Below are positions 5,046 through 36,357 of a stretch of DNA of 64,000 nucleotides, piece by piece. Position 1 is the stretch's first letter. Every line of letters begins with the position of its first letter. Made by a program: the position numbers and the translations under genes. Source of the DNA: Candidatus Latescibacterota bacterium. GTDB taxonomy: Bacteria; Latescibacterota; UBA2968; GCA-2709665. The notes under the pieces are model-generated. The model searched no databases. It was not told where the DNA came from and was given only the letters and a program-made list of their open reading frames with translations. Location of the stretch: the NCBI GenBank assembly GCA_965116875.1, contig OZ220733.1, positions 2,496,001 through 2,560,000 on the forward strand, given 5' to 3'.

Positions 5046-5047
5046 AT

Positions 5048-5914
5048 ATGAAAAACGTAATTATGGCCGTCTGGCTGTCAGTCCCCGTGCTCATGGGATG
5101 TGAAAGAGTCGTCAATATCGATGTAGAAGAAGGACCGGAACGACTCGTAGTTGAAGGTCGCATTGAGCGCCACCAGGATGATCGCGAATTCGTGCAGTCA
5201 ATCAGATTGTCGACCACAGCCCCCTATTTCAGCAATGAACCCACACCGGTGGTCAGCGGAGCAGAGGTGATCATACACGACGATGAGGGCGCCACCTACC
5301 TCTTTGCTGAGTCCCGGCGCCAGGCCGGCATATACGAAAACAGGGACATGCGGCCAGAAGTTGGCAGAACCTATACCCTTGAAATCGACATTAACGGCGA
5401 ATCATATCGAGCAGTCGAAACACTGCATTCAGTCGCGCCCATCGACTCGATCTACCAGCAGTTTGAGAAGGCCAATTCGTTCGAGGACGGAGGCATTCGA
5501 GTAAAGATCAACTATCAAGACGTCCCGGGTCGCGAAGATTACTACTTGTGGGAGCAATTCGCGGACGGCGTACTACAGGCAGAGCCCGATCCTGGTAATT
5601 CGCTCAACTTTGTCGGATCGGATGAGTTTTTCGACGGAGAGTACGTCATCGGTTTCGAACCCAATCAGGAAGCCACGGTAAAACCGGATCAGTTGGTACT
5701 CGTGAGACAGCTCTCCTTATCGAAAGAGGCCTTTAAATATCACTTCCTGCTCTTTGAGGAAACAGGGCAAGATCCCCTCTTCACTACGCCTGCGTCGTTG
5801 ATCAGGGGCAATGTAGAGAATCTGACCAATCCCCAGCGATATGCATTGGGATATTTCGGAGCCAGTGAAGTGGACACTGCCGAACTGCAAATCGTGGAAG
5901 AGAGAGGGCGCTGA
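5048..5914 (+). CDS. DUF4249-type lipoprotein partner of the TonB receptor
   Basis: Start re-set to ATG 5048 (MKNVIMAVWLSVPVLMGC lipobox); RLVVEGRI and GNVENL..ALGYFGAS motifs. Confidence 0.82.
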   Translation: MKNVIMAVWLSVPVLMGCERVVNIDVEEGPERLVVEGRIERHQDDREFVQSIRLSTTAPYFSNEPTPVVSGAEVIIHDDEGATYLFAESRRQAGIYENRDMRPEVGRTYTLEIDINGESYRAVETLHSVAPIDSIYQQFEKANSFEDGGIRVKINYQDVPGREDYYLWEQFADGVLQAEPDPGNSLNFVGSDEFFDGEYVIGFEPNQEATVKPDQLVLVRQLSLSKEAFKYHFLLFEETGQDPLFTTPASLIRGNVENLTNPQRYALGYFGASEVDTAELQIVEERGR

Positions 5915-7886: not shown

Positions 7887-7935
7887 TCCGGTTCTTTCTC
7901 GTCGAGATAGTTACGAATAGACAGATGGGTAGTTT

Positions 7936-8775
7936 TCAGAAACGCGCGCGGTAGTTGATTGGCTGCAAGTGTACGTGATGGCCGACGTCCCCGTGTAACT
8001 GGAATAGCCCGGGGCTCTGCCGAAACTGGAACAGACGGTAGAGATGGTAGGCGTTTGCGTTCGCCTCGGAGAACCGGACCTCGCCGGCGCTGATGTAGAA
8101 TGGTGTGAGTTTGCCGTAACGTGGCGTTTTGACCTCGATGAATCGGTCCTGCCCGTTGACTTCGTACGAATGAATATCGAATCCGGCGTGGTCGCCCACG
8201 GTTTTGGAAACCTGCTCGACGTTTTCGGCCAGCCGGTCCTTGCCTTCACACCGCAGGCGGGTGCGCTCGAACCTCATCACCAGATCTTCTCCCGCATCCC
8301 CAAGGGATCGATTGAGCGCTTCCATCTGAAGATAGTTGATCGGTGGGCCAGGTCAGCTGGAAACGACGTATTCGATCGGTCTCTCAGCTACCGAAACAGA
8401 AGCAGGCACTGGCGGATCGACGCCGATACCGAGCACGTCGTCGACGGTAAACGGGTCCTGGAGTGCCGTGACATCTGCTACGACCAGATCCTCCAGCGAC
8501 GAAAGCTGCGCACGCACCACTTCCCTCAGCAGGTTCTGGACGTTTCCAAGGGGTTTGTAACCATTGATATACGGGAACCCCAACTCGATCAGAACCGCGC
8601 TGATGTTCTGGTGTTTGCGCTCCACCGCGCCCCGCGTGCGGTCATCCAACCGATCACGGAGCGCACGGTTGTGAGCGGCTTTGTTAAAACCGTCCCCTCG
8701 AAGTTCCGAAGCCAGCATATCGAAATAGTCTCGAACGGTGGCTTCGACCTCCTGTTGGCTCCAGGCACTTGACAT
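7936..8775 (-). pseudogene. DUF3883 (NOV C-terminal PD-(D/E)XK) nuclease-like protein interrupted by one in-frame TGA at 8353-8355
   Basis: ORFs 8353..8784 and 7936..8325 share a frame; read-through gives ...VVSS*PGPPINYLQMEALNRSLGDAGE...GFDIHSY...FIEVKT. Confidence 0.75.
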
Positions 8776-8856
8776 CGGCACCAAAGTTCACTTTCGTCTT
8801 CGTGGGTCCGGGGTGTGATGCTCACTCGTAATTTTCGCCACAACACCAACGTCCAT

Positions 8857-9066
8857 TCAGAATACAACAAATCTCATCACCAGCATAGTCACCAGAATTA
8901 CAATTCCAAGACTACACAGGAGACTCCACAAGAATTGGATCCACTTTCCCCATTTCTTGTGTCGAAAAACGCTGTACCAGAACGTAATCGTCAATCCGAC
9001 CAAAGCAATAAGGCTGATCCCAAATAGCTTTAACAATTCAAAGGTATGGAACATGTATCCACGCAT
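8857..9066 (-). CDS. Small hypothetical membrane protein (2 TM), low GC
   Basis: 69-aa ORF with two hydrophobic stretches. Confidence 0.45.
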   Translation of the reverse strand: MRGYMFHTFELLKLFGISLIALVGLTITFWYSVFRHKKWGKWIQFLWSLLCSLGIVILVTMLVMRFVVF

Positions 9067-9185
9067 AGTAAAGCTCCGAGCATCCCGGAGGGCATGCCCA
9101 TGGATGCTCGCTGGAATTACTCCGTCGTCTTCGGAATCAAGGTGTTCTTAGTTGACTCGATCCGGGTAATGGTTTACACTGAAAT

Positions 9186-9800
9186 ATGACCGCTCTGTCT
9201 ATACTCATTCTTCTTTTGGAAATGAGTACTGGTGCCAGTGAACATTGGCACCTTACCACGGAGCATTCTCCATTTACCGAAATGGAGGTATTGACAGTTC
9301 GTGGGAGAGTTCACCATGCATATAGTTCCTGGTATGGATCTCCAGCGCCGGGTGATTCACTTTACTGTGTCCTTTTGATTACCCCCACTATGATCGCCAT
9401 TGAATACCCATTGGAAAGGCTTCCTCGCTGGAGTGAATCAAACACCTTTCATCAAGATATGGTGGTTTTATTTAAGGGAAAGAATAGGCGTCCTCAGTTA
9501 ATAGGTACGTTCCGACGGGCTTTTGGTGAAATACATGGTGAACGCAATCTTCTATTGATGGCACCCAAAGATCGGGCAACTTTATTGTGGGCATTATTTC
9601 AAGATAAATTTCAAACAGTCGAGGTGCATTTGCAGACCATCCCTAAACGTAAGGTAGGACAACATCCAAACGAACTTATACGAAATCTGGGTCACGAACA
9701 CTTCAGGTTTAATCTCACAGGTTCGGGGAAGGCTATTCGGCGATTATTTGAGGTCACCAAGACCGATACTGCGATCTATACAACAGTTGATTGGAGGTAG
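9186..9800 (+). CDS. Hypothetical secreted protein, low GC
   Basis: 204-aa ORF with a hydrophobic N-terminus in an AT-rich block; no recognised family. Confidence 0.6.
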   Translation: MTALSILILLLEMSTGASEHWHLTTEHSPFTEMEVLTVRGRVHHAYSSWYGSPAPGDSLYCVLLITPTMIAIEYPLERLPRWSESNTFHQDMVVLFKGKNRRPQLIGTFRRAFGEIHGERNLLLMAPKDRATLLWALFQDKFQTVEVHLQTIPKRKVGQHPNELIRNLGHEHFRFNLTGSGKAIRRLFEVTKTDTAIYTTVDWR

Positions 9801-10570
9801 ACGTGGTTATTTTCCTTTTGGGTGCATTGACCGTTTTTGCACAATCGGGTCACATTACCCATGGCCTTACTCCTGAATCGGGTATCAAAGGACGTGTGAT
9901 TGAAGACTTTCATACCGTTGGAAAATTCGAGGTATTTGAATCACCGACGTCGAAACATCCCATAATAAGATCAGACGGTGAAATCTTACATTGGTATGGG
10001 CGCCCCTTGTGCAAGCTCGGTTATTCGGGCAATTGCACCAGGTTGTTTTTTTTGAAACGAAATGTAGTTGGCGATGCTTCTCTCTGGTTGCCCTACTTTG
10101 AGGAATCGGTGGTCGGGGGACAAACATGGTATCTCATTAAATGGTTTCAACCACCCTCACGTGATACTCGCATAATTAGTCTTCAATTCGGTTGGGTTAG
10201 GGCCGCGGATTTTCCCGAGGCCCAATCCCTGCAGGAGATTATCAAGTCACACAAAGGTATGTTGTGCCTAACCAGAAAATTGGATTATCTGCGATTTTAT
10301 GATGATTTAACCATGGAACCCAGGCTTCTCGCAGCAGAGCCAAAGGTTGTGTGCAATGCCTGGGATTTGCAGGAAAAGGGTTTGTCGAACGAAATAAACG
10401 TGCAAGAGTTCGTCACGTTTCAAGGCGTCGAATTTGTAAAGTTGAAATTGGATATTTATGTTTGTGATCCTTTGAAGAACAATCCAAAATCTCTTATGGC
10501 TGAAGGTTATATCAAGTTTTGGGACGTGGATTATCGACCTAATATCTGGGTGTGTTACATGTCGGATTGA
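9791..10570 (+). CDS. Hypothetical secreted protein, low GC, several Cys
   Basis: 259-aa ORF (start may be the GTG at 9803), signal-like VIFLLGALTVFAQ. Confidence 0.6.
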   Translation: MEVDVVIFLLGALTVFAQSGHITHGLTPESGIKGRVIEDFHTVGKFEVFESPTSKHPIIRSDGEILHWYGRPLCKLGYSGNCTRLFFLKRNVVGDASLWLPYFEESVVGGQTWYLIKWFQPPSRDTRIISLQFGWVRAADFPEAQSLQEIIKSHKGMLCLTRKLDYLRFYDDLTMEPRLLAAEPKVVCNAWDLQEKGLSNEINVQEFVTFQGVEFVKLKLDIYVCDPLKNNPKSLMAEGYIKFWDVDYRPNIWVCYMSD

Positions 10571-18675: not shown

Positions 18676-19383
18676 TCAGTGTCCTGCTGGATTTCCGGTG
18701 GGTTGCGCTCCGGATTTCTTCCGTGTCAAATCGATCTTCAGGTCCCGTCGAATGTAGATTTCGATGAACTCACGCAGCCACACCTCCTTCGCATGCGTGA
18801 ATCGCTCGATCAGTTTCTGTCTGGGCGCATCCGTGAGGTAGACGATGCGCCACAGGTTAAGAGGTCGCAATTCACTGCCATCGACCGCGTGCTCAACGTG
18901 AAAGAGAGGCTGTCCTTCGCCCGCCCGAAGCAGGTTCCCGCCTTCGTCGAGGAGATCCGCCGTCCCGATGAAGGTGGCGCTCTGCCGGACGGGGTTGAGG
19001 AAGACCTGTTCGAGGACCAGCCCGCGCTCGGACGGCTTCAGCCAGAGGCGCTGCAATGAGCATCGCACGAAGGATTCGGCGCCGTTGGCAGCAGCCTGCC
19101 GGCGCCAATATCGAGAGCTGCCCGCCGTTACGACCGAGGGAATATAGAGATCGGGCCGGAACGCCTTTTTCACCTCCATGTCCCATAGCATGCTCCGGGT
19201 AAACCCAAGCGGCTTGCTCGTGCGGTAATGCCGGGCGAGCACCATGTTGATATCAACCGGAGACAACTCGACCCGGGTGTTGGCGGGATCAGCCCAGGCA
19301 CGCTCGAATTCTTCCTCATGATTCAGCCGGGCGACAGGCCTCGATGCTTCCCCGGTTTCGCCGGTGCGTTTAGGGACTCCCAC
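18676..19383 (-). CDS. Hypothetical protein, possibly AtaL/DUF1857 START-fold
   Basis: FTRSMLWDMEVKKAFRPDLYIP resembles the AtaL N-terminal motif; operonic overlap with neighbours. Confidence 0.55.
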   Translation of the reverse strand: MGVPKRTGETGEASRPVARLNHEEEFERAWADPANTRVELSPVDINMVLARHYRTSKPLGFTRSMLWDMEVKKAFRPDLYIPSVVTAGSSRYWRRQAAANGAESFVRCSLQRLWLKPSERGLVLEQVFLNPVRQSATFIGTADLLDEGGNLLRAGEGQPLFHVEHAVDGSELRPLNLWRIVYLTDAPRQKLIERFTHAKEVWLREFIEIYIRRDLKIDLTRKKSGAQPTGNPAGH

Positions 19384-21130
19384 GACCCGTCTCCGGAACT
19401 TTCACGTGGACGGTCAGGATGTCCGTGTCGTGGAACTGCTGGTGGCGGACGGAGGACGCGATATGCCGCAACAGCCGTAGCGAGACTTCCCGCTCCATCA
19501 GCACGTCATCGGGCCGGTCCGCAAGCAATCCGATCCGGTCCTGGACGTTCTCCTCGCCAGCCGCGGCAATGAACTCGAGGACAGCTCCGCCGCTCTCCTT
19601 TTGCGCCTTCAGCAGCAGGCGCCGCTGTTCGGGTTCATCACGACCTTCGTCCTGTCCGATCAGCGTGAGCAACGTCTCTTCGCTGGCAGCCTCGAGACGG
19701 TCGACCATATCCGCGCCCCAGCCGTTGCGGGATGCGAACACACCGAGGAAATCTCTGATCTTCGGGAGTACGGAAAGATCGAGTTCCGTTTCGATCCGGC
19801 CGCGGCGCGACCCCGTGACTTCCAGAAACAGGGTCATGAGGATCGCCGTGATACCGCCGGCCGTGATGCCGTTGCTCAGCAGGCCGCCCCCCAACTCATC
19901 GAGAATCTCGGGAAACAGGAGGTCGTTCTGGCAGCCGACGCCGACCCAGAAGGCGACGCCCGTGATCAGCGCTTTGCGGTGATCGATCCCGCCCTGCACC
20001 ACTTCCGTCATCCCGCGGACGAAGGTCATCGCCAGCACGACGGTCAGATAAGCGACGACGACCGGGCTGGGTATCGCCAGTATCATCGCAAGGACCCTGG
20101 GCAGGAACGCAAGCACGATCAGCACGCCAGCCGCGACGAATCCCACCCGGCGGGCCGCGACACCCGTCAGTTCGACCGTAGGAACGCTGACTCCGATGGT
20201 CTGGGTCGGCACAATTCCCGTGACGCCTGACAGCAGTTTGCCGATGCCGTCCGCCGTAACGGCGCCCTCCACGGCCCGGTAGTCCACGGCCCGCGGCCGG
20301 CGCCATGATACGCGCTGGATGGCGACCGCCCCGGTGATCGTCTGGATAGCGCCGATGAGGGACACGAACGCAAAGGCGGGCAGGAGTTCCACGAAGGCCG
20401 GACCGAAGTCGAGCCCGATTCCCGGCCAGCCGCCCTGTGGCAAGCCGATCCACGGAGCCCGGGCAATCAGGGCATGGTCATAGAGACCCATCGATCCGCC
20501 GACAACGGATCCCGCGATCACCCCGATGAGCGGAGCCCACAAACGCAGCGTTGCCCCTGCCTTCAACGAGATGCCGCCGATGACCAGGCCTGTCGCCACC
20601 GCGGTGAGCGGCGAACTGAGAGCCGTTTCGGGAGGCGCATCGGCCAGGCGACTGAATACAACCGGAAGCACGGTCGCAGGGATCAGCATGTTCACCGTGC
20701 CGACGATGGTTGGTGTCAGAAGTCGCCTGAACAGGGCCAGACGCATCGAAATCACGATCGGGACGAGCGACGATGCCACGACCAGAGTGGCGAGCAGCGG
20801 TGGCCCGCCCTCGCTGAGCGCGCTGACGCAGACCCCGATGAAGGCTCCGGCGGGGCCCATGAAGAGCAGGTATCCTGCTCCGACCCGGCTCAGCCTGAGC
20901 GCTTGAAGAGCCGTGCAGACGCCACTGACGGCGACTGCGCCGAACACGGCCCAGGACAGGTACGCTTCGGTTCCGCCGCCGACCCGAATGATGATCGTGG
21001 GGATGAAGATGATGCTGGTGATGCCGAGAACGACCAGCTGCAGGCCGCTGCCCAGAGAGACAAGCGCCGGAGGATTCTCGTGGGGTTCGTATTGAACGTT
21101 GGAAGCGCTTTGCTCGTTGCCGCTGCTCAC
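19370..21130 (-). CDS. NCS2 (xanthine/uracil) family permease with C-terminal degenerate HATPase/RsbW-like domain
   Basis: YEPHENPP..GLQ, many TM helices, ADGIG...TGVAARRVG NCS2 signature; soluble ~145-aa tail. Confidence 0.85.
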   Translation of the reverse strand: MSSGNEQSASNVQYEPHENPPALVSLGSGLQLVVLGITSIIFIPTIIIRVGGGTEAYLSWAVFGAVAVSGVCTALQALRLSRVGAGYLLFMGPAGAFIGVCVSALSEGGPPLLATLVVASSLVPIVISMRLALFRRLLTPTIVGTVNMLIPATVLPVVFSRLADAPPETALSSPLTAVATGLVIGGISLKAGATLRLWAPLIGVIAGSVVGGSMGLYDHALIARAPWIGLPQGGWPGIGLDFGPAFVELLPAFAFVSLIGAIQTITGAVAIQRVSWRRPRAVDYRAVEGAVTADGIGKLLSGVTGIVPTQTIGVSVPTVELTGVAARRVGFVAAGVLIVLAFLPRVLAMILAIPSPVVVAYLTVVLAMTFVRGMTEVVQGGIDHRKALITGVAFWVGVGCQNDLLFPEILDELGGGLLSNGITAGGITAILMTLFLEVTGSRRGRIETELDLSVLPKIRDFLGVFASRNGWGADMVDRLEAASEETLLTLIGQDEGRDEPEQRRLLLKAQKESGGAVLEFIAAAGEENVQDRIGLLADRPDDVLMEREVSLRLLRHIASSVRHQQFHDTDILTVHVKVPETGRGSP

Positions 21131-25143: not shown

Positions 25144-27390
<2,247 letters not shown>

Positions 27391-27649
27391 TCACACAATT
27401 GCGGAGGTCCGGCTCGTCCACCATGCGTAGCCGTAGTACTAATAGCGGGGCCGATGGCCGTGGATGCTGCGCCTTAGTTCCTGAAGCTGGGCATCTGATT
27501 TCTTGCTGGATTAGTACAAAGATAAACGCCCGTACGCAGGTCCGAACATTATCACCATGACACCGCTACAGGCATTCGAGAATACTCTACAAGCGTTGAG
27601 CAAGTTGGAAGCAGCAGCAGAAACGTGGCCCAAGCAACTATCCTTGTGT

Positions 27650-28215
27650 AGCGAGCCCTATTAACGCTCTCTACCACCTGCGTCTTGACCTGCTTTGTCT
27701 CCCGGTCTTTAGCGCCTACCACCGGGGTCTTGCCCACCGTACCACGACCGGCATGCAGCTTCTTTTTGGCATGCTTGTTGCCTTCCTTGCGGCCAATATA
27801 GGTTTCGTTAATTTCGATCGGTCTGGTAAGAAGACTACCAGGACTCGAAAGCGCTTCCCGAATCCGGTGAGTCATGAACCATGCCGTCTTCTGCGTTACA
27901 CGAAGACGCCTGTGAAGATGCATGCTTGAGACGCCCTTGATGCTGGTAGCGCAGATGTAAACAACATACCCCCACTTTCTGAGAGAAACCTTAGACCTCT
28001 GCAAGACTGTACCGGTACGAACCGAGAAAAATTCTCAGCAATTCTCGCAACGGAAAGGCATGGGCTTGCCGTTTTCGACAACCACTGTCTCTCCATGATT
28101 ACATCGTTGACAGGGACGTTTTCCGTCCGGCCAGCGCTGCTCAGCGAACCAGTCTGCGGCGGTTTTTTCATCAGGAAACATCTCGGCCAGCTCAATGTCG
28201 CTGATGCCGAGTCTA
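27650..28215 (-). pseudogene. Degenerate IS1595-family transposase
   Basis: Zn ribbon CQRC..CENC, in-frame TGA at 28035-28037, KGVSSMHLHR..TQKTAWFM.HRIREA, EINETYIG (catalytic D replaced by N), 3' truncated. Confidence 0.85.
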
Positions 28216-28280: not shown

Positions 28281-29258
28281 CTAGTCTGACCTGCCGTCGG
28301 TTTTAGTCCGGTATTTTCTCGGGCGGGCGGCGATCTCGGCCGCTTCCTTTGCCAAGGCTGCGCTTTTCGACGCGAGCAGATGGGACACACTTGCGGCCGC
28401 GACGTTACTCATGGCCTCTTCCGTGGCTTTGACAGTCAGGCGGGCGGCGGTTTCGGCCCGTATGGAATTGCCCTCCCTGGCAGCGCTCTGCGCCCGTTCC
28501 GCCTCAAGACGTGCGGCATCCGCGGCTTTGCGGGCCTTGCGGGCGCATTCGGAGGCGCCCGTGCTGGCAGTTGCCGCCGAGAGCGCAGACTCAAGAGCAG
28601 AATGCGCCAGTGCTGATATTTCTTCGCCCGTCTCGCTGGCGAAATCCGTAGCGGCTTTGTATTTCTTGTACGCGGCGGTCGCGCGGTCGGCCAGGTATTG
28701 CCCCCATGCGGCGGCGTTGTATGTGCGCCCGTCGGCATGGTATTTCTTGAACTCGGCGTTGTACTTATCGACGTCGATGCGATATTTCGTAATAGCAACG
28801 TCTCTCTTGGCATAGTATTCCTCCGAGGAGGCGGCGCTGGCGGCGCGAAATTCCTCCAGTGCGGCACCACCAGGGTCGCTGGCGGCCCAGTACTTTGCCC
28901 TGGCGTGGGCGTATTTTTTGGCCCGGTATTCCGACGCGGCGTCTGTTTCGGCATTGTATTTCGCCCAGGCTGAGGACTTCTTGTATTCTGCCCGTGCATC
29001 CTCTACAAAATCAAAGCCGTCGTCCAACGCCCTCATATAGGCACGGGCCGCCTCTTCAGCGGCGGACGAATGCCTACTGGCGTCCTCGGCGTAGGGCACT
29101 GCGTCCTCCGCCAAGTCCTGCGCCGCCAGTGCGGCGCTGTCCGCCCTGGCAGCATATCGGGTGGCCACTTCCGCCGCGGCATTGGCGGCTTTCTGCGCTT
29201 CACTCTGGCAGGATAGGACCAACGCCGCGGCAGGTAATGCCAATGCGATCCGTTTCAT
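28281..29258 (-). CDS. Ala-rich coiled-coil lipoprotein of unknown function
   Basis: MKRIALALPAAALVLSC lipobox; Ala-rich helical body with an (A/K)KY-rich central quasi-repeat. Confidence 0.65.
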   Translation of the reverse strand: MKRIALALPAAALVLSCQSEAQKAANAAAEVATRYAARADSAALAAQDLAEDAVPYAEDASRHSSAAEEAARAYMRALDDGFDFVEDARAEYKKSSAWAKYNAETDAASEYRAKKYAHARAKYWAASDPGGAALEEFRAASAASSEEYYAKRDVAITKYRIDVDKYNAEFKKYHADGRTYNAAAWGQYLADRATAAYKKYKAATDFASETGEEISALAHSALESALSAATASTGASECARKARKAADAARLEAERAQSAAREGNSIRAETAARLTVKATEEAMSNVAAASVSHLLASKSAALAKEAAEIAARPRKYRTKTDGRSD

Positions 29259-29481
29259 TTTCCCTCGCTTTCTCCAGTCCATACTTTCTCCGTTGATTTC
29301 TTCTGGTCGTGCAATCGAATGGAGCTCGTTTAGACCATATCCCATAATCGCGAAACGTATTTCTCAAATTGCATATTGCCGCCATCCGCGAGTTATATTT
29401 TTTGCAAGTGGATAAATCATCCCCATTTTCACGCCCCAAAAATTCATCTGTGGAACAGCCTGAATCCGCCGCTTAGCACGC

Positions 29482-30546
29482 CTACTCTGACTTGTCATAT
29501 TCCTCGGCTTCGGTCTTACCCTGCGTTTGGGCTGGCTCGACTTCTGGAAGCCGGCATTCTCTCCAAGGCCGCTGAATGTATTCGCAATACTGTCGTGCGC
29601 TAAAGGAAACGCAGTCTGGCCATGCGCACTTGGTTTTTCCTTTTTCAGTCGTCTTGAACGGGATACACATCAGGTCCCCGTCGACGTCTCCGAACATCTT
29701 GATCAGATAGAACTCCTGAGGATGATGGTAGAGGTACACTTTGTGGCATTTTAGTAGGTTCTCTACCTGCGATATCCAGCCAGGAAATGCATCTATGAAG
29801 AAGCGGTAGTCGGTCTCGTTACCCAAAGGGTTCTCTGCATGAAGAATGTTGCCCAGCCGTCCGTATATCTTGATCAGTTTGTTTTCGCTGAGGTAACTGC
29901 CCTTCAGTTCTGCTGGTTCCTCACTTGCTGCGCTTTCCTGTAAGGCTACGGGCTTCGGGTAAAAATCTGGATGGAGGCGATTCAATTCCTTGAGCTTTTT
30001 GTTTATGTCTTGGGAGCTCCGCAACTCCTTTTTCGACTTCTTCCAGGCATCCTTGTTGGACACCAAGGAACTGAACACGATGAGCTCCAGAATCATCCTG
30101 AGTTGGAGGCAGATCGACTCGACACGGGTTTGAATCCTGATTTCGGATATTTCCAACAATTGTTTGATCGATTCGACTCTGGACTTGACCTCTTCCATAA
30201 GATCGCAGTACTGAGCGATATCCAGTCCTTCTGCCTGCTTGATCGTCCATTCGCAATTAAGGCAAACTATGTTCCAGCCCCATTCGACAGGGCTATCCCC
30301 CTCAAGTTGCAGCGCGTCTTCTCCACACGCCGGACAGATTGAGTATTGGTGACCATCCACCCCCTTTACCGATCTATCTCCGTATAAATCCGGGCTCATC
30401 ATTGCATTACCGAACTTGGGAATCTCTCCGCAATCGGGGCAGGGCTCGGTAGGTTGGATCCCGTACAACATGAATGCCAGAGCTTCCTCCCGATGGCCGT
30501 GCGGGCATTTTCCCAGATTTCCCGATTCCTTCTGATCGGCAGACAT
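29482..30546 (-). CDS. Zn-ribbon + HEPN-like domain protein
   Basis: N-terminal CPHG/CPDC/CPAC/CLNC; helical core CLQLRMILEL...YPKP...YGRLGNILHAENP (R-x5-H); Cys-rich C-terminus. Confidence 0.6.
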   Translation of the reverse strand: MSADQKESGNLGKCPHGHREEALAFMLYGIQPTEPCPDCGEIPKFGNAMMSPDLYGDRSVKGVDGHQYSICPACGEDALQLEGDSPVEWGWNIVCLNCEWTIKQAEGLDIAQYCDLMEEVKSRVESIKQLLEISEIRIQTRVESICLQLRMILELIVFSSLVSNKDAWKKSKKELRSSQDINKKLKELNRLHPDFYPKPVALQESAASEEPAELKGSYLSENKLIKIYGRLGNILHAENPLGNETDYRFFIDAFPGWISQVENLLKCHKVYLYHHPQEFYLIKMFGDVDGDLMCIPFKTTEKGKTKCAWPDCVSFSARQYCEYIQRPWRECRLPEVEPAQTQGKTEAEEYDKSE

Positions 30547-31312
30547 AATCGAGACTTTCTCGCAAATTCAAAGCCCCATGCACAGTTCGATGTTTTCGAT
30601 GCTCCTGCTGGTAAGTCGAAGACTCTCGCTGGCACGTACGAACTGATGCTTCTCGTCCTCTACTGTTACAACTTCCCCGGCTTTAGGTCTTCCGTAATGC
30701 GATTCGCTATCGACTAACAGACACTTCCGTAGATGTCGGCGTCGCCGGTCTTGAGAAGCTCTTCAAGGGGCTGGATTTGTGACGCATTTCGCCTGGGCCG
30801 GTGTGATTCGTCTTTGGCCAATTCATACCCACGGATTGCGTATTTATCTGTCTCTCAGATTCAGCGTCCGTCGTTCTATGTAGCCGGACGTAAACACCTG
30901 AGTTTACTGTACCAATCCTGCCATTCCGAGTGCGTTCTGGACTCACGAATGCCATCTACTGACTATAATCTACCAAGATTGGCATTGACAATAGCGACCG
31001 CATTAAAGCTCGTCTTACATGATAGCCATCTCCCTCGCGCTCGCTCATTCAGTCTTGCGTCGGCCTTGTCGATCGTGTACGACTAGGTGTTGAATTCCGT
31101 CCCGTACAGAAGCGTGGCTACCGTCTTGCGGTGAACCGATGCAAGCAGGTAGCCACGTCTCCGTTTCAACGGTAAACATTCCTGCGTGTAGCTTATCGTA
31201 CAACAAAACATCAAGATCAGCAGTCTCAACTTAACAGGCCGAGCGGCCGTTCTGTGGACAAGCCTACGCCCAAATGAAGCCGACTATCGGCGGAAGCGAC
31301 TGACCAGAAGGG

Positions 31313-31957
31313 CTACGTTGGTGCAGTAGTGATCGGGCTGATCTTCATTGGTGTTGAGGTCGCGGATCGCGGTTCGAAATACAGATCACCTTCACGACGT
31401 CCTCGCTGGTGACGTACTAGGTAGCCCTCTCGATGGAGATTCACCAACCTATTTGTCGCCGCGGACGGCCTAATCCCCTCCTTCATTGCTAGCTGGGACG
31501 CGGTCACACGCCCGCCCAGTACATTTATGGTATCTAATGTGCCTTTTTCTGTTTCCGTCAATGCACCGACGGGGTTTCCTTCCCTTAAGTCGAACGGTGA
31601 GTGCGAAAGATAGAGCGGCAATTGGTGTGTATGCGCCATGTACCGAATGAAATCGCCTACGCCCGGGTCGGTGGTCGTGATGACAAGCCGGACAATTCCA
31701 TGCTCGCCGCCGCGGATTCGCTGGGCGAGCGGCAGGATCAATTCCTGCAAAGCCGCAGGGGTGTACGCAAATCCCGCCAGATCCAATACAAGTACCTGAG
31801 GATTCTCTGTAAGGTTCAGCATTGTGGCCAAATGATCACGCGCAGTTGCCGCATCTTCTTTTTTGTTAAGAAACCGAGTTGCGTTAAGTCGCGATTCAGA
31901 AGATTCGCGAAATAATCCTGATAGAAACACGATGCCTGCAGTAGGAAACTCGTTCAT
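31313..31957 (-). CDS. STAS-like + winged-HTH (MarR-like) putative regulator
   Basis: VLVLDLAGFAYTPAALQELI (STAS-like); VTASQLAMKEGIRPSAATNRLVNLHREGYLVR (wHTH); start re-set to MNEFPT. Confidence 0.65.
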   Translation of the reverse strand: MNEFPTAGIVFLSGLFRESSESRLNATRFLNKKEDAATARDHLATMLNLTENPQVLVLDLAGFAYTPAALQELILPLAQRIRGGEHGIVRLVITTTDPGVGDFIRYMAHTHQLPLYLSHSPFDLREGNPVGALTETEKGTLDTINVLGGRVTASQLAMKEGIRPSAATNRLVNLHREGYLVRHQRGRREGDLYFEPRSATSTPMKISPITTAPT

Positions 31958-32018
31958 TTGACCGATCCCCCGATGTGGTACTGGTTGCCGTTTAAGTCCC
32001 ACAACGCCCAAAGGGTAC

Positions 32019-33563
32019 TCAAGCAACTTGGGGTGAGTCAACTCCAAAATGGGGGTCGGCTTCCGCTCCATACTTTTCCTTATAGGTTGAGATAAAATCC
32101 CGATCCTCACAAATACAGCTGCCAGTCCCGGCCTTCAAAGCCGGCTGGGGAGAAGGATCGCGTTCCGTTAAGGGTTGCATGACGTCCAGTCTGCGCACAA
32201 GGGTTCTGCGTTGATTACCGTCGGACAGCACGTCGCGCACCGTTTCCGCAGCCAGCAGCACGCCAGCGAGTGCCGACTGGAAAGCAAGCGGTACTTGCAG
32301 TTCTCTAGGTGTGGGTCCGGCTTCTCCGAGTGGTATAATGCCGCCACCACAGATTCCCTCTATCCAAAGCTCATCTATTGGCCTATCTACGTATGGTTCC
32401 ATTGACTCGACTGGAATCGCCCAAGCTGCAGCAACAGCTTCGCAGATCACCTTGCCGGTCGCTTGTCGATCTCCCAACCGAAAGCGAACCTGATCCCTGA
32501 GTTGAGGGATCCTAAGACCTTCAGCGACTAATTGGTCCTGGCTCTTGGATTTCTGGGCTGGCAAGTAAAGGCAGGCTAGGCAGGCGTCACGACCCAAGAA
32601 GGTATGACAAGACACGCCGAGATCGCCGGCTTGGGTCCACCCGTTAACTATCCATCTTGGCAAACTCCCTTGTACAGCTCGCCTGTCATGGGCGGAGTCG
32701 AGGGCAACCAGAACGCGATCCCACGTGTAGCCCTTGGCTACAAGGAAGGATGCCCAGGTACCCAGATGAAGCAACGCCTGTAGCGATCCGTCGAATTTCC
32801 CTCCAACGATTTCAACCTTTTCGCCGCCTTCATCGCCCCGTGCACAAAGTACGTAACGCTGGAGATTGCTGAGCTCCACGACTTGTGGATCTATTAGGTG
32901 GATCTCGCCACTGAGTGGTGTGCGCGTTAGGGCCCACGCCGCGCCATTGCCGACCGCTCCAATGCCGACCAGCGCAAGGGATTCCGTCAGTGTGGTCGCT
33001 GTCAGCTTAGGAAAGCAATCGCCGTAGGGAGGGAAACTGACGTCCGTGTCAAGCAGGGATGCGCCGTTCGGGAGAAAGAGAAATCGAAAAAGGTTAGCTC
33101 CCGCCAGGCAGGCGGCAAAGCCTGCTCCAAAGGGGTTGCCTAGATCGCTGGTATTGTATGGCCCCTCAGTTCCGACCTTAGCCAGCCAGCCATCGCAGCC
33201 AGCGAATAAGGTTGGTGTGTCAATGGTGGGCGCACCCTTGCCGACAGCTAGACCAACATTGGCAGTACCCTTCCTAGACAACTCGATGTTAGGGTTGATG
33301 TTACTGGCCAGTGCCATTAGTTCATCGGCGAGCCGATTGCCCTCAGAAACGGTGGAAAACACCAAAGCCGGGTACAAGCGGGCCGCTAACCTGACAAAGA
33401 GATCAAGAAGCTCGCGTCCGTCTCGACTGTCCGCCGCATCTGCGCCGAATGAAATAGCCACTCGGACACCCTCAAGCTTTTCGGTGAAGGCGTCGATCTG
33501 AAAGCCTTGGAGGACTTGTGAGATGGCGACCGCGTCACGATGAAAGTAATCAGCCAACGACAT
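32019..33563 (-). CDS. bilD: Ubiquitin-activating E1-like (ThiF + Prok-E2_C-type N-terminal domain), Bil-type E1
   Basis: LVGIGAVGNG nucleotide loop, IDPQVVELSNLQRY, ALDS..DRR, CLAC, ICGG candidate catalytic Cys, C-terminal CIC. Confidence 0.82.
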   Translation of the reverse strand: MSLADYFHRDAVAISQVLQGFQIDAFTEKLEGVRVAISFGADAADSRDGRELLDLFVRLAARLYPALVFSTVSEGNRLADELMALASNINPNIELSRKGTANVGLAVGKGAPTIDTPTLFAGCDGWLAKVGTEGPYNTSDLGNPFGAGFAACLAGANLFRFLFLPNGASLLDTDVSFPPYGDCFPKLTATTLTESLALVGIGAVGNGAAWALTRTPLSGEIHLIDPQVVELSNLQRYVLCARGDEGGEKVEIVGGKFDGSLQALLHLGTWASFLVAKGYTWDRVLVALDSAHDRRAVQGSLPRWIVNGWTQAGDLGVSCHTFLGRDACLACLYLPAQKSKSQDQLVAEGLRIPQLRDQVRFRLGDRQATGKVICEAVAAAWAIPVESMEPYVDRPIDELWIEGICGGGIIPLGEAGPTPRELQVPLAFQSALAGVLLAAETVRDVLSDGNQRRTLVRRLDVMQPLTERDPSPQPALKAGTGSCICEDRDFISTYKEKYGAEADPHFGVDSPQVA

Positions 33564-33565
33564 CT

Positions 33566-34042
33566 CTAACAGACCTCTATAAGATTACTTAGTGAAGGGC
33601 TTATTTCGAGCCACCCGTATTTTCCGAGACGATAAGCGGCAATACCACTTGATCCCCAACCGTCGCGCCCGAAGTTGGGAAGAACGATGGATAGGCTACC
33701 GACCAAGGTGGTTATCGGGAAGGTCTCGTCGGTTTTTGAGTGATAGGCATCCGTTGGATGGCCGTGGACCTGTACGCCTATTACCTGCTTTGCCTCGTAA
33801 AGCCACACGTTCAAACGATGCAATTCGGAGCCGTCAACTCGTACGCAGAGACCTGAATCAAGTTTGTAGGAGACTTGGTCCGGGATATGCACATTGGCGA
33901 CGTTAAAAGTGTCGTGATCACGTGTACCTGACCAGACTACGAACAGCTCGTATCCATCCTCGCCCGCCGAAAGAATCGCCTCCACGGTTTCGCGTATGTA
34001 ACAGGCCGGGATTCGAAAACGCCGCACGCCTATTAGGTTCAC
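33566..34042 (-). CDS. bilC: JAB/MPN metallopeptidase (deubiquitinase/Ubl-processing)
   Basis: GYEL...QVHGHPTDAYHSKTD (E..HxHx7Sx2D); GTG start overlapping the E2 stop (GTGA). Confidence 0.82.
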   Translation of the reverse strand: MNLIGVRRFRIPACYIRETVEAILSAGEDGYELFVVWSGTRDHDTFNVANVHIPDQVSYKLDSGLCVRVDGSELHRLNVWLYEAKQVIGVQVHGHPTDAYHSKTDETFPITTLVGSLSIVLPNFGRDGWGSSGIAAYRLGKYGWLEISPSLSNLIEVC

Positions 34043-34644
34043 TGAGGCGCCTCCGAAACAGCAAAGGAGATCTGTGGTACAAGGTTGACACCCAAGTCGG
34101 TCACTGGTTCGAGGCCGTATTTGGAAATCACGCCCAAGAGGCGAACCAGACGACCACCGCCTGCGATCCTGTGAATTTCCCAATGGTCTCCGGAGTGGCC
34201 TGGGTGGTCGTGGTACTCCTTGACCCCTGCCACACAGAGGAAGGGTAGGTCTTCGGGGGAATAAGCTTGCATCAGGTCCTGCACCCTAGTACTTCGCATC
34301 TTAGTGCCGTCGGGCATGACCACCTCCGGCCCAAGGATCGTTTGAGGGAGACGTGTTGGGAGCTCTTTGAATACAAGGGATCGTCCAGAGAATGGATCGA
34401 TCAGACGAACCGAAGGCGGCTCAACATCATAGTTCGTATAGTCAAATTGGACGGCCGTCACAATCGTCGGTGGGCTTGTTTTTTTTGAAGCCAGAACAAC
34501 GACTGCCACGGGCCATTGTGCCTTCACGAGAAACCAGCCGCGAGCGTGATAGTCAGCCTCGAGGGACCGGAAGTCGGCGATCTCCCGCTCAAACTTCGCC
34601 TGTGACACTACCGGGTCGACATACTGTTCGGCTTCACTAGCCAT
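34039..34644 (-). CDS. bilB: E2-like conjugating protein (Metal_CEHH-type)
   Basis: FDYTNYDVEPPSVRLIDP, FLCVAGVKEYHDHPGHSGDHW; lies between Ubl and JAB. Confidence 0.78.
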   Translation of the reverse strand: MASEAEQYVDPVVSQAKFEREIADFRSLEADYHARGWFLVKAQWPVAVVVLASKKTSPPTIVTAVQFDYTNYDVEPPSVRLIDPFSGRSLVFKELPTRLPQTILGPEVVMPDGTKMRSTRVQDLMQAYSPEDLPFLCVAGVKEYHDHPGHSGDHWEIHRIAGGGRLVRLLGVISKYGLEPVTDLGVNLVPQISFAVSEAPQ

Positions 34645-34903
34645 GGCCGCCCACCCCGGCTTTGAGATTAAGGAAAAGGCGAACCTTTTCATCAAAGCCA
34701 TAGTCCTCGATCTTTTTGTCCAGGTCGAGCAGGTTTCCATCGGCGTCACGGAGTTCCCAGTTTTCTGGCGGCTGGCCGGAGTTTGCTGTTTGTCGCAAGG
34801 CATCCGGAATGATCGCGCGGAGTGGATCATCCTCGACAGCATCGACGACCGTGGGTTGTCCGTTGACGACCACTGTAATCGAGATTTTCTTTGGAATGGA
34901 CAT
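34637..34903 (-). CDS. bilA: Ubiquitin-like protein (DUF2604-type) with GG plus 2-aa extension
   Basis: 88-aa beta-grasp-like ITVVVNGQP...NWELRDADG..LD..KIEDYG..LFLNLKAGVGG-HG; AGGAG RBS. Confidence 0.82.
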   Translation of the reverse strand: MSIPKKISITVVVNGQPTVVDAVEDDPLRAIIPDALRQTANSGQPPENWELRDADGNLLDLDKKIEDYGFDEKVRLFLNLKAGVGGHG

Positions 34904-34958
34904 CGATTGGTCTCCTTAAATGTGGACATCGGCTGATCCTGTTGGCAACGACATTTCA

Positions 34959-34987
34959 AATATAATACACGGAATTCATTAAATCAA
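34959..34987 (-). promoter_or_regulatory. Sigma70-like promoter of the Ubl operon
   Basis: TTGATT-17 bp-TATATT on the minus strand, 55 bp upstream of the Ubl start. Confidence 0.55.
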
Positions 34988-35217
34988 GTGAAATTTGTGA
35001 CAAGCGGGATGATCAGAGGAAAATCGTCGGCCCGCGACTACCGCTTGCACCATTCACGCGAATGTCGGTACGCCTCGATCGAGGCGTACCGACCTCGATT
35101 CAAACACGTCGCCAGGTAAGTCTTCGTCGCCCGTGATGGACCCTCGCGTACTTACTATCCAGCGAATTGCCTTATACCGATGTTTTCCCGAAATTCCCGA
35201 TATTTGCTGCATAGACC

Positions 35218-36357
35218 CTACATTCTGGCCAACGCCTTCGCGAAGTCCGCGCACAGATCCTCCGCGGCCTCGATGCCGCACGCCACGCGGACCAGGCCGT
35301 CGGTTATGCCCAGACCCGCCCGATCTTCCGGGCTCATGCCGCTGTGCGAGGTGGCGGCCGGACGGGTAATGAGGGTTTCGACGCCGCCGAGACTGGGGGC
35401 CGTTACCGGCAGCGTCAGCCCGGACAGCAATCGTTTGGCCGACGCCACGCCGCCGTGCAGTTCGAAGCTCAGCACCCCGCCCGCTCCGGATAACAACCGC
35501 TGTGCCCGTTCGTATTGCGGATGGCTCTCCAGCCCGGGATAGTTCACCCGCGCCACCTGCTCCTGTCCGGTCAAAAATTCCGCCAGGCGCAGACCGTTCT
35601 CATTGTGCTGGCGCATTCTGAGCGCCAGTGTCTTCATGCCCCGTTGCAGCAGAAAACAGGCGTGCGTATCCAGCGAACCGCCCAGATGATTCAGCTTGTG
35701 TCTGATGGTCTCGACGTGTGCGGAGGACCCCGTGATCGCGCCCGCGACCAGGTCTGAGTGACCGTTCAGGTACTTGGTGGCGCTGTGCAGTTCGATATCA
35801 AACCCGATTTCCAGCGGGCGGAAATTGCACGGAGAGGCAAAGGTATTGTCGATCAGGGAGACCAGCCCGTTTTCCCGGGCGAACGCCACGACGGCCTCCA
35901 GATCGGCGACCTCCAACAACGGGTTGGTCATGGTCTCCACGTAAATCGCCCGGGTTTCCGGTCGGAGCTTCCCCGCCCACGTCTCCGGCGCGTTCCCGGC
36001 GATGAAGTCGAAGCTCATCCCCAGGCGCGGCGCATCCTGCGTCACAAAATTGTGCGTGCCCCCGTAGAGACAGTCCTGGATCAGCAGATGATCACCGCTT
36101 TCGAGTACGGCTATCAATGCCGTGGTGATGGCGGCCATCCCGGAGCCGGTGACGAGCGCGTCCTCACCGCCGCAGACCGCGGCCAGCTTGGCATGCAGTG
36201 CGCGGTGATTGGGTGTGTTGTTCAGGCGGAGATAGCGGATGGCGTTGTAGTCCTGCTCGTCCTGCGACACAAAGGTCGAGCTCTGGAAGATCGGCAGCAC
36301 CACGGCGCCCTCGATGCGCTCCTCGCCGGCGTGAATGAGACGGGTTTGGATATCCAT
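35218..36357 (-). CDS. PLP-dependent trans-sulfuration enzyme (cystathionine gamma-synthase/lyase family)
   Basis: SGMAAI, YGGT, ETMTNP, DNTFASP, HSATKYLNGHSD, SLGGVETL. Confidence 0.92.
   Translation of the reverse strand: MDIQTRLIHAGEERIEGAVVLPIFQSSTFVSQDEQDYNAIRYLRLNNTPNHRALHAKLAAVCGGEDALVTGSGMAAITTALIAVLESGDHLLIQDCLYGGTHNFVTQDAPRLGMSFDFIAGNAPETWAGKLRPETRAIYVETMTNPLLEVADLEAVVAFARENGLVSLIDNTFASPCNFRPLEIGFDIELHSATKYLNGHSDLVAGAITGSSAHVETIRHKLNHLGGSLDTHACFLLQRGMKTLALRMRQHNENGLRLAEFLTGQEQVARVNYPGLESHPQYERAQRLLSGAGGVLSFELHGGVASAKRLLSGLTLPVTAPSLGGVETLITRPAATSHSGMSPEDRAGLGITDGLVRVACGIEAAEDLCADFAKALARM

What the first reader, a model, noticed from the sequence alone, without database searches (positions are those of the whole stretch)
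31313..34987. Complete bacterial ubiquitin-like conjugation operon (Ubl-E2-JAB-E1) extended by a fifth STAS-wHTH gene
Seen: four translationally coupled genes (overlaps or a 2-bp gap) with intact motifs: Ubl ending GVGG-HG, E2-like FLC...EYHDHPGH, JAB HxHx7SxxD, and E1 GxGxxG/CLAC/ICGG/CIC. A STAS-like + wHTH gene follows 61 bp downstream on the same strand, and a promoter lies upstream. Known: this order matches BilABCD anti-phage systems (type II-like, single-domain Ubl), which conjugate the Ubl to phage proteins. Inference: the trailing STAS-wHTH gene is not part of the four-gene core and has no partner kinase visible here. It may be a dedicated regulator, or a conjugation substrate, making this a five-gene variant (six with the HEPN-like gene). 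This is the best candidate for an undescribed system in the window.
Basis: partly seen in the sequence, partly recalled or inferred. Interest (0 to 1): 0.85.

Follow-up and report, generated by a model that had tools for sequence, protein, structure and literature searches.

The report
Ubiquitin-like defence operon with built-in repressor
This is a known kind of bacterial ubiquitin-like tagging operon (Type II Bil) that carries a conserved fifth gene, most likely its own DNA-binding off-switch, related in design to the recently described CapS repressor but lacking that repressor's partner kinase.

Summary
On the minus strand lie bilA, bilB, bilC and bilD, each matching the solved Ensifer aridi Type II Bil proteins (E 2e-25, 4e-45, 2e-30, 1e-103). 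A 214-aa gene (g5) starts 61 bp downstream.

The core operon is already published. g5 is not a chance neighbour. Of 24 g5-homologue loci fetched, 19 have Bil genes beside g5: 14 in tandem after bilD and 5 divergent from bilA.

g5 has a STAS-like N-domain (fold level only, not significant) and a MarR-like winged helix. This is the architecture of CapS (EMBO J 2026, PMC13373217).

An 18-bp palindrome, TTCAC-N8-GTGAA, overlaps the bilA -35 box. It sits next to bilA in all 17 g5-linked loci that keep that region. It is missing from 5 of 5 Bil operons that lack g5.

No CapK-type kinase travels with the cassette, and the CapS phospho-serine column is not conserved.

Best reading: a kinase-less, CapS-like autorepressor dedicated to one Type II Bil clade; its input signal is unknown. 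The HEPN-like sixth gene is not part of the system.

The scan earlier noted the divergent relative on other DNA (e1-3865944).

The parts
34975..34992 (-). Operator-like palindrome TTCACttgatttaATGAA (consensus TTCACT-N6-AGTGAA; one mismatch here) covering the -35 hexamer and part of the spacer
   Evidence: Positions 1-6 and 15-18 are invariant in 17 of 17 aligned sites while the spacer varies. 14 exact matches occur in 415,667 bp of loci against a mean of 0.135 (max 2) in 200 shuffles.
34997..35000 (-). Extra upstream TCAC quarter-site, about one helical turn 5' of the palindrome (possible third contact)
   Evidence: C, A and C at positions -6, -5 and -4 are kept in 14, 13 and 14 of 17 sites. 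Its function is inferred only.
34959..34987 (-). bilA promoter: -35 TTGATT (34987-34982), 17-nt spacer, -10 TATATT (34964-34959)
   Evidence: consensus scan. An equivalent TGTGGTA-type -10 lies downstream of the palindrome in the related loci.
34637..34903 (-). bilA: single beta-grasp ubiquitin-like protein, 88 aa, ending in the conserved GVGG followed by HG
   Evidence: DUF2604 7.8e-29. PDB 8tyx_A Ubl(BilA) 2.1e-25, with Gly86 aligned to E. aridi Gly97.
34039..34644 (-). bilB: CEHH-type E2, 201 aa, catalytic Cys in PFLCVAGVKEYHD
   Evidence: Metal_CEHH 1.1e-49. PDB 8tyz_C E2(BilB) 4.2e-45.
33566..34042 (-). bilC: JAB/JAMM deubiquitinase-like peptidase, 158 aa (Glu in GYELF, HGHPTDAYHSKTD)
   Evidence: PADLOC BilC 4.2e-10. 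PDB 8tyx_B DUB(BilC) 2.3e-30.
32019..33563 (-). bilD: E1 with an inactive adenylation domain (Pfam Prok-E2_C) plus an active ThiF-type domain, 514 aa
   Evidence: PDB 8tyz_A E1(BilD) 1.1e-103 over residues 1-510.
31313..31957 (-). g5: 214-aa STAS-like (about residues 1-125) plus MarR-like winged-helix (about 133-200) protein; proposed kinase-less CapS-like repressor of the bilA promoter
31279..31291 (-). Weak terminator-like hairpin 22 nt after the g5 stop codon (possible operon end)
   Evidence: Terminator-like sites are not above chance in this region (6 found, 4.1 expected), so this is weak.

Best explanation
The locus is a horizontally acquired five-gene cassette. Four genes form a Type II BilABCD ubiquitin-like conjugation pathway. 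BilC trims BilA after its conserved Gly, BilD adenylates and thioesterifies it, and BilB transfers it to lysines; these steps are established for the E. aridi homologues and inferred here.

The fifth gene encodes a two-domain protein with a STAS-like N-domain and a winged helix. I propose that it binds, as a dimer, the 18-bp palindrome TTCAC-N8-GTGAA that covers the -35 box of the bilA promoter. In this reading it keeps the operon, and itself as the last gene, at a low level by negative autoregulation until a signal acting on the STAS-like domain releases it.

The design is that of CapS, but without the CapK kinase and without the conserved phospho-serine, so the input signal is different or supplied in trans.

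Shown here: gene identities, co-inheritance of g5 with this Bil clade, and co-occurrence of g5 with the palindrome.

Inferred: DNA binding, repression rather than activation, dimerisation, and everything about the signal.
For: (1) Core identity. PDB matches to E. aridi BilA, BilB, BilC and BilD are at 2.1e-25, 4.2e-45, 2.3e-30 and 1.1e-103.

(2) Linkage. Of 24 g5-homologue loci (18 genome, 6 metagenome), 14 have bilD directly upstream on the same strand and 5 have bilABCD divergent from g5. One intact g5 (L006) has no Bil genes, 3 are truncated remnants, and 1 is cut by a contig end. All-against-all clustering of flanking ORFs found no other real gene shared by more than 3 loci.

(3) Similar divergence. 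In the tandem loci g5 is 59-73% identical to the window copy. This compares with BilD 65-74%, BilC 62-73% and BilB 57-75% (60-75% without the 5'-truncated L005 copy).

(4) Architecture. Pfam MarR_2 hits occur in 25 of 27 members. The AF2 model has pLDDT 83.6 and pTM 0.81. For the N-domain alone, the best PDB fold hits are STAS proteins (3t6o, 7b0u, 1th8_B, 1tid_B, 4hyl). phmmer aligns g5 residues 54-198 to residues 45-183 of V. cholerae CapS 9z72 (E 0.18).

(5) Operator. The palindrome lies upstream of bilA in 12 of 12 tandem loci that retain that region (9 exact, 3 with one mismatch). It lies between bilA and g5 in 5 of 5 divergent loci. The half-sites are invariant and the spacer is variable. 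It spans about -40 to -23 of the predicted promoter. Its 18-bp span equals the CapS 'wide palindrome' TTAA-N10-TTAA (PMC13373217, section 9).

(6) Negative control. 5 of 5 Bil operons without g5 lack the site near bilA: L026/G146, three rhizobial plasmids, and L030/G449 (L030 was scanned for exact matches only). G146's BilD is nested inside the 100/100-supported g5 clade. That operon instead has an XRE-HTH gene plus a 231-aa ORF upstream.

(7) Second copy. In L012 a second exact operator-plus-promoter copy precedes an inserted NYN-domain gene.
Against: - No binding, repression or dimer has been measured.
- The STAS assignment is not statistically significant: Foldseek E 0.065-0.3 and TM 0.44-0.53, with no Pfam STAS or DUF4325 hit in 27 members.
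- Sequence similarity to CapS is marginal (E 0.18), and the family profile did not recover CapS at E<=1.
- The Pfam MarR hits are below the gathering score (21 vs 24.6 bits).
- A repressor encoded last in the operon it represses is unusual; published CapS, CapW and CapH/P sit upstream.
- One intact homologue (L006) sits 4 bp upstream of an AIPR/Mrr_cat gene, with no Bil genes and no palindrome. The family is therefore not strictly Bil-bound.
- The loci are related by descent and transfer, so the counts overstate independence. The variable spacer and flanks argue against mere recent copying.
- No anti-phage activity is known for Type II Bil (PMC11601603 discussion passage).
Confidence: 0.78

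Rival explanations
1. g5 is an ordinary CapS whose kinase is encoded elsewhere. A host anti-sigma-type (CapK/RsbW-like) or other Ser/Thr kinase phosphorylates the STAS-like domain, for example at the invariant Thr66-Pro67, and releases it from the operator after DNA damage.
For: Thr66 and Pro67 are invariant in 27 of 27 members. They sit at the N-cap of helix 2, where STAS proteins are phosphorylated (model). The divergent form has Ser at this position (read by eye). The genome holds HATPase_c_2-type domains: 9 matches, two of them small RsbW-like ORFs.
Against: The cassette moves between phyla without any kinase. The nearest HATPase_c_2 match in this genome is 29 kb away and is a HAMP-HisKA two-component kinase. 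In five other genomes the nearest match is at least 100 kb away. In the phmmer alignment the CapS phospho-serine falls on g5 column 68 or 69. Column 68 reads S 11, A 8, L 6, V 1, G 1 of 27. In the paper, all 443 capK genes are immediately followed by capS (PMC13373217, section 7).
Confidence: 0.12
2. g5 acts mainly on protein rather than DNA. It could be a VapS-like inhibitor or adaptor that binds a Bil enzyme or the Ubl, or it could be the preferred conjugation substrate, so that Ubl attachment switches it.
For: A CapS-like protein (VapS) does inhibit a partner protein, VapC (PMC13373217 abstract and section 14). g5 is co-inherited with the enzymes at similar divergence. It is probably co-transcribed with them (61-nt gap).
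Against: The winged-helix recognition helix (P164 S165 A166 A167 N169 R170 L171) is invariant. A matching invariant palindrome accompanies it, which is hard to explain without DNA binding. No lysine column is invariant in the family. No interaction was tested with a Bil protein.
Confidence: 0.07
3. g5 is an unrelated neighbouring gene of a defence island, and the palindrome is bound by some host factor.
For: The island also holds other unrelated genes: an IS1595 transposase fragment and two 354-aa unknowns. One g5 homologue occurs without Bil genes (L006).
Against: 19 of 24 loci from several phyla keep g5 beside Bil in one of two fixed layouts. The palindrome is present with g5 and absent without it, even inside the same BilD clade. 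A host factor would not be shared across the host phyla as labelled in their records (Chloroflexota, Gemmatimonadota, Actinomycetota, a Spirochaetia-labelled MAG, and this phylum).
Confidence: 0.02

Closest known systems
Type II BilABCD (CEHH/6C) operon, Ensifer aridi TW10 (Chambers et al., bioRxiv 10.1101/2023.09.26.559546; PDB 8tyx-8tz0)
   Same: The gene order is Ubl-E2-DUB-E1. All four proteins match the solved chains. The Ubl has a single beta-grasp domain with a conserved Gly and a short tail, the E2 is of the CEHH type, and the E1 has IAD plus AAD domains with CxxC/CxC zinc cysteines.
   Different: BilD is only about 40% identical to the rhizobial ones and forms a separate 100/100 clade. 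A fifth gene and a conserved operator are attached. The paper reports 83% of 162 operons as four-gene and 15% with CapH/CapP; no STAS-wHTH gene is mentioned in the parts I read (section 5 and passages).
CapK + CapS, 'controller of associated pathways' (Chambers, Rani, Min, Villa, Corbett; EMBO J 2026, PMC13373217; PDB 9Z71-9Z73)
   Same: The repressor architecture is an N-terminal STAS-type domain plus a C-terminal MarR/ArsR-like wHTH, about 185-214 aa. There is a palindromic site over the promoter with the same 18-bp span as the CapS wide palindrome. It is associated with ubiquitin-like immune operons, including five Bil operons, and probably autoregulates.
   Different: There is no CapK next to it, whereas all 443 capK genes in the paper are followed by capS. 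g5 lies after bilD rather than upstream. The phospho-serine column is not conserved. The half-site is TTCAC rather than TTAA. Sequence similarity is only marginal (E 0.18).
CapH+CapP and CapW/BrxR regulators of immune operons
   Same: These are also regulators hard-wired to defence operons. A close relative of this very operon (G146) carries an XRE-HTH gene upstream where g5 is missing, which suggests regulator swapping.
   Different: The folds are unrelated (XRE HTH plus M78 peptidase; WYL). g5 has neither domain.
Divergent wHTH + 247-aa unit beside Bil operons in soil Actinomycetota
   Same: It is homologous to g5 over residues 52-200 (43-45% identity) and has the same TTCAC-N8-GTGAA site between it and bilA.
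   Different: It is divergently transcribed. It carries a roughly 95-aa C-terminal tail and a 247-aa partner gene, neither of which has any match in the window or the tandem loci.

Membership tests
Type II BilABCD | Gene order Ubl - CEHH/E2 - JAB DUB - multidomain E1 on one strand | tested here: met
   junctions are -8, -4 and +2 nt.
Type II BilABCD | E1 with an N-terminal Pfam14459 (inactive adenylation) domain plus a ThiF-type active domain, homologous to E. aridi BilD | tested here: met
   Prok-E2_C 2.5e-21 and ThiF 6e-10; 8tyz_A 1.1e-103 over residues 1-510.
Type II BilABCD | CEHH-type E2 with the catalytic Cys in the FLC(M/V)AGV(R/K)EYHD motif | tested here: met
   Metal_CEHH 1.1e-49; the alignment to 8tyz_C keeps the motif.
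Type II BilABCD | JAB peptidase with the catalytic Glu and the HxH...S..D metal site | tested here: met
   The alignment to 8tyx_B (an E33A mutant) places the window's Glu at the mutated position, and HGHPTDAYHSKTD aligns with HSHPGRAYHSTTD.
Type II BilABCD | Ubl with a conserved C-terminal Gly followed by 0-9 residues | tested here: met
   ...KAGVGG-HG; Gly86 aligns with E. aridi Gly97.
Type II BilABCD | Ubl-lysine conjugation activity; any anti-phage effect | not testable with these tools
   This needs biochemistry or phage assays. The literature passage read says the targets of Type II Bil are unknown.
CapS (STAS-wHTH repressor) | C-terminal MarR/ArsR-like winged helix | tested here: met
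   MarR_2 hits in 25 of 27 members, below the curated cut-off. Foldseek wHTH hits have probability 1.0. 2hr3 is matched at 2.7e-5 with the family profile.
CapS (STAS-wHTH repressor) | N-terminal STAS domain | tested here: inconclusive
   The top fold hits are STAS proteins, but E is 0.065-0.3 and TM is 0.44-0.53. There is no Pfam STAS or DUF4325 hit. The Atlas lead DUF4325 scores 0.82, below its 0.9 mark.
CapS (STAS-wHTH repressor) | Encoded immediately after a CapK (HTH-STAS-GHKL) kinase gene | tested here: not met
   No conserved neighbour other than bilABCD was found. There is no HATPase_c_2 match within 29 kb here or within 100 kb in 5 other genomes. Caveat: I had no CapK sequence, so only the Pfam GHKL model was used.
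CapS (STAS-wHTH repressor) | Absolutely conserved phospho-acceptor Ser on STAS helix 2 | tested here: not met
   The aligned column reads S 11, A 8, L 6, V 1, G 1 of 27. The alignment to CapS is weak, and an invariant Thr66 lies two residues earlier, so a shifted acceptor cannot be excluded.
CapS (STAS-wHTH repressor) | Palindromic binding site over the regulated promoter | tested here: met
   Met in silico only. Binding was not tested.
CapS (STAS-wHTH repressor) | Significant sequence homology to solved CapS | tested here: inconclusive
   phmmer gives E 0.18 over residues 54-198. The profile search did not list CapS at E<=1.
Canonical MarR family | Whole-protein Pfam score above gathering, with helical dimerisation arms flanking the wHTH | tested here: not met
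   The score is 21.0 bits against a cut-off of 24.6. The model has an alpha/beta N-domain in place of helical arms.

The most novel reading that the evidence does not exclude
The five genes are a self-contained mobile immune module. Its repressor needs no kinase. Instead, the STAS-like domain reads an infection cue or the state of the pathway directly: for instance by binding a phage protein, by binding free or charged Ubl, or by being Ubl-conjugated or trimmed by BilC. The ubiquitin-like cascade would then feed back on its own transcription. That would make a ubiquitin-type modification system wired to its own promoter in bacteria, and a second, phosphorylation-independent way to operate a CapS-type switch.
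Probability: 0.2. Interest if true: 0.75.

Novelty: new variant of a known kind. Interest (0 to 1): 0.52.

Why it matters
What Type II Bil systems target, and when they are switched on, is still open in the passages I read.

This clade offers a compact handle on the question: one repressor, one predicted operator, and no accessory kinase. The cassette is conserved across several phyla.

If g5 binds the palindrome, the signal that releases it would reveal what this ubiquitin-like pathway responds to.

It would also show that CapS-type STAS-wHTH repressors can work without CapK. The operator consensus and the g5 profile additionally give a simple way to find and classify such cassettes in metagenomes.

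Tried and rejected
- The look-up of encoding contigs was closed, so no neighbourhoods could be read for the 252 database homologues of g5. The census therefore rests on 24 loci from the search for related loci plus whole-genome searches.
- Complex prediction on two copies of g5 gave 'no answer' (score 0.38, mark 0.42). It counts neither for nor against dimerisation.
- The look-up of sequencing runs listed no RNA holder, so nothing can be said about expression or co-transcription.
- Foldseek with the full-length model was dominated by the wHTH domain and did not identify the N-domain. The fold library ends 2026-04-08 and returned no CapS entry.
- PADLOC and NCBIfam gave nothing for g5. Pfam gave nothing for its N-domain.
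- The 354-aa 'HEPN-like' gene (29482-30546) was rejected as a system member. It has no Pfam, PADLOC or significant NCBIfam hit, and its one homologue, in L011, is in a different position.
- The Ala-rich 354-aa ORF (28281-29345) has no homologue in any locus.
- The idea of a CapK-like kinase elsewhere in the window was rejected. The only HATPase_c_2 match in the window (824-2128) is a HAMP-HisKA-HATPase_c sensor kinase, and the permease at 19370-21130 shows only Xan_ur_permease.
- Literature searches and the parts read found no description of a kinase-less STAS-wHTH gene downstream of bilD.
They may list such operons.

What I saw of each paper:
- 10.1101/2023.09.26.559546: abstract, outline, all of section 5, and passages.
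- PMC13373217: abstract, outline, all of sections 7, 9, 14 and 33, and passages.
- PMC11601603: passages only.
- All others: search listings only.

One supporting example (G516, divergent layout) is an unpublished genome. No count in this report depends on it.

Full report
**What is there**

Five genes lie on the minus strand between 34903 and 31313.

- The first four are tightly coupled: bilA/bilB overlap by 8 nt, bilB/bilC share a GTGA overlap, and bilC/bilD have a 2-nt gap.
- The fifth gene (g5, 31957-31313, 214 aa) follows after 61 nt.
- Upstream is a sigma-70-like promoter, TTGATT-17-TATATT, at 34987-34959.
- A weak terminator-like hairpin follows g5; it is not above chance.
- The region has lower G+C (0.50-0.56) than its flanks (0.60-0.66).
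- It lies between katG (25144-27378) and a Cys/Met-metabolism PLP enzyme (35218-36357). An IS1595 transposase fragment sits at 27552-28004.
- None of the 14 same-genus genomes, and only one other of the 168 genomes held for the phylum, has the E1. None of the others has g5. The cassette is therefore an acquired island.

**The four-gene core is a Type II BilABCD operon**

- Pfam gives DUF2604, Metal_CEHH, and Prok-E2_C plus ThiF. PADLOC gives BilB, BilC and BilD.
- All four proteins match the solved Ensifer aridi proteins: BilA 2.1e-25, BilB 4.2e-45, BilC 2.3e-30 and BilD 1.1e-103.
- The alignments keep the activating Gly of the Ubl, the E2 cysteine motif, and the JAB Glu and HxH...S..D site.
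- This system was described by Chambers et al. (bioRxiv 10.1101/2023.09.26.559546; I read section 5). They found 162 operons, 83% with four genes and 15% with CapH/CapP.
- This part of the finding is therefore correct but already known.

**The fifth gene is conserved and linked to Bil**

- g5 has 252 database relatives; the best 120 are 62-77% identical, and none has a functional name.
- A pattern scan of one genome per species found 18 loci, and a metagenome scan found 6.
- By tblastn, the 24 loci divide as follows:
  - 14 have bilD directly upstream of g5 on the same strand.
  - 5 have bilABCD divergent from a shorter-matching g5 relative (43-45% identity over residues 52-200).
  - 1 intact g5 (L006) has no Bil genes. 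It sits 4 bp upstream of an AIPR/Mrr_cat gene in a defence-type context.
  - 3 are truncated remnants (L014, L018, L025).
  - 1 is cut by the contig end (L015).
  - L023 and L025 look like second copies of L016 and L018.
- Clustering all flanking ORFs showed nothing else real shared by more than 3 loci.
- In the tandem loci g5 has diverged about as much as the enzymes.
- A BilD tree (20 rows) puts the 13 tandem operons in one 100/100 clade, with host records labelled Chloroflexota, Gemmatimonadota, a Spirochaetia-labelled MAG and this genome. The rhizobial plasmid operons, which have no g5, are the outgroup.

**What g5 looks like**

- The C-terminal third is a MarR-like winged helix: Pfam MarR_2 hits in 25 of 27 members, all below the curated cut-off. 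The family profile matches 2hr3 at 2.7e-5.
- The AlphaFold model is confident (pLDDT 83.6, pTM 0.81).
- The N-terminal 125 residues form a beta-alpha-beta sandwich. Modelled alone (pLDDT 79.5), its best PDB matches are STAS proteins: an anti-sigma antagonist, stressosome subunits, SpoIIAA, and SLC26 STAS domains.
- None of these matches is significant (E 0.065-0.3, TM 0.44-0.53), and Pfam sees no STAS domain.
- A literature search led to CapK+CapS (EMBO J 2026, PMC13373217).
  - CapS is a STAS-wHTH homodimeric repressor of immune operons, among them five Bil operons.
  - It is released when the adjacent GHKL kinase CapK phosphorylates a conserved serine.
- The weak phmmer hit of g5 to 9z72 (E 0.18, residues 54-198 against 45-183) turns out to be V. 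cholerae CapS (data availability section).
- g5 therefore has the CapS design, with only marginal sequence similarity.

**A matching operator**

- Aligning the regions upstream of bilA revealed a palindrome, TTCACT-N6-AGTGAA.
- The exact core TTCAC-N8-GTGAA occurs once, 57-69 bp before bilA, in 9 tandem loci. It occurs with one mismatch in L008, in L012 and in the window at 34992-34975.
- It occurs exactly between bilA and g5 in all 5 divergent loci.
- That is 17 of 17 g5-linked loci that still have the region. L005 has lost bilA, and L020 and L021 are cut.
- Positions 1-6 and 15-18 are invariant in the 17 aligned sites, while the spacer and flanks vary.
- Exact matches number 14 in 415,667 bp of loci, against a mean of 0.135 (max 2) in 200 shuffles.
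- In the window the site covers the -35 hexamer, roughly -40 to -23. This is the position of a repressor.
- Its 18-bp span equals the CapS 'wide palindrome' (section 9 of the paper).
- A further TCAC one helical turn upstream is kept in most loci.

**Negative controls**

- Five Bil operons without g5 have no such site near bilA: G146, three rhizobial plasmids, and G449 (G449 was scanned for exact matches only). L029 has a one-mismatch match about 2.7 kb away.
- G146 is the sharpest control.
  - Its BilD is the closest of all to the window's (77% identity) and is nested inside the g5 clade.
  - Yet g5 and the palindrome are both gone, and an XRE-HTH gene plus a 231-aa ORF sit upstream instead.
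- In L012 a second exact copy of operator plus promoter drives an inserted NYN-domain gene.

**What differs from CapS**

- No kinase travels with the cassette.
- The nearest HATPase_c_2 match is 29 kb away here and is a classical two-component kinase. In five other genomes it is at least 100 kb away.
- The column that aligns with the CapS phospho-serine is variable: S 11, A 8, L 6, V 1, G 1 of 27.
- Thr66-Pro67, two residues earlier at the N-cap of helix 2, is invariant.
- In the tandem form g5 is the last gene of the operon it would repress, which gives simple negative autoregulation. The releasing signal is unknown.

**Verdict**

- The core is known.
- The fifth gene is best read as a dedicated, kinase-less, CapS-like autorepressor of one Type II Bil clade, with a deducible operator (confidence 0.78).
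- This is a new variant of a known kind. It is not a new system, and the 'sixth' HEPN-like gene does not belong to it.
- Binding, repression and the signal all remain to be tested.

Noticed in passing
L004:6782-7975 and L010:7098-7961: In two related operons the Ubl and the E2 are read as one open frame. L004 has two tandem beta-grasp copies plus BilB (397 aa), and L010 has one Ubl plus BilB (287 aa). BilC cleavage after the conserved Gly could release them. A two-domain Ubl is reported as rare in Type II Bil (1 of 134; PMC11601603 passage).
   Followed up: partly
L012:2920-3564: A second exact copy of the operator plus promoter (extended palindrome GGACTTCAC...GTGAAGTCC) sits directly before an inserted NYN-domain gene (PF01936, 1.9e-15), just upstream of bilA. 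It is a possible extra member of the g5 regulon.
   Followed up: partly
L026 (G146:C1:178000-197000), 6182-10235: This is the closest BilD relative (77% identity), in the same class as the window's genome. It has no g5 and no palindrome. An XRE-HTH gene (114 aa) and an unassigned 231-aa ORF lie upstream on the same strand, an apparent regulator swap. katG lies about 1 kb downstream; katG also lies within a few kb of the cassette in the window and in L010.
   Followed up: partly
window 29482-30546; L011:5184-6203: The 354-aa Cys-rich 'HEPN-like' gene has a 41%-identical homologue in one other Bil+g5 locus. There it is divergent and upstream of bilA rather than downstream of g5. No family hit was found in Pfam, PADLOC or NCBIfam.
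   Followed up: partly
L006:4854-12365: An intact g5 homologue occurs without Bil genes and without the palindrome. It is followed after 4 bp by an AIPR/Mrr_cat protein (559 aa) and lies near an AAA_21 ATPase plus HNH pair. The g5 family may regulate other defence genes with a different operator.
   Followed up: partly
L010:10777-11691, L013:10681-11742, L006:13073-13987: A roughly 304-aa protein with weak Mrr_cat and Effector-associated-domain-1 hits lies next to g5 in three loci.
   Followed up: no
L030 (G449:C41:4000-17000), 3583-5402: This Bil operon lacks g5 but has a homologue of the 247-aa partner gene of the divergent type. It also has an ORF divergent from bilA whose tail matches the C-terminal extension of the divergent g5 form (E 1e-7). 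This looks like another regulator variant.
   Followed up: no
L005:7203-10001: This operon appears 5'-truncated: no bilA was found, bilB lacks its first 28 residues, and there is no palindrome. It also has an unusually long gap of about 300 bp between bilD and g5.
   Followed up: no
window 27552-28195: An IS1595-family transposase fragment (PF12762, 5e-9) sits at the katG-side edge of the low-GC island. This fits acquisition by transfer.
   Followed up: no
L008:9877-10001, L012:6556-6695: The bilD-g5 gap in these loci contains TTGACA/TATAAT-like hexamers close to the g5 start, read by eye. g5 may therefore also have its own, possibly leaderless, promoter in some hosts. None was called in the window's 61-nt gap.
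   Followed up: no
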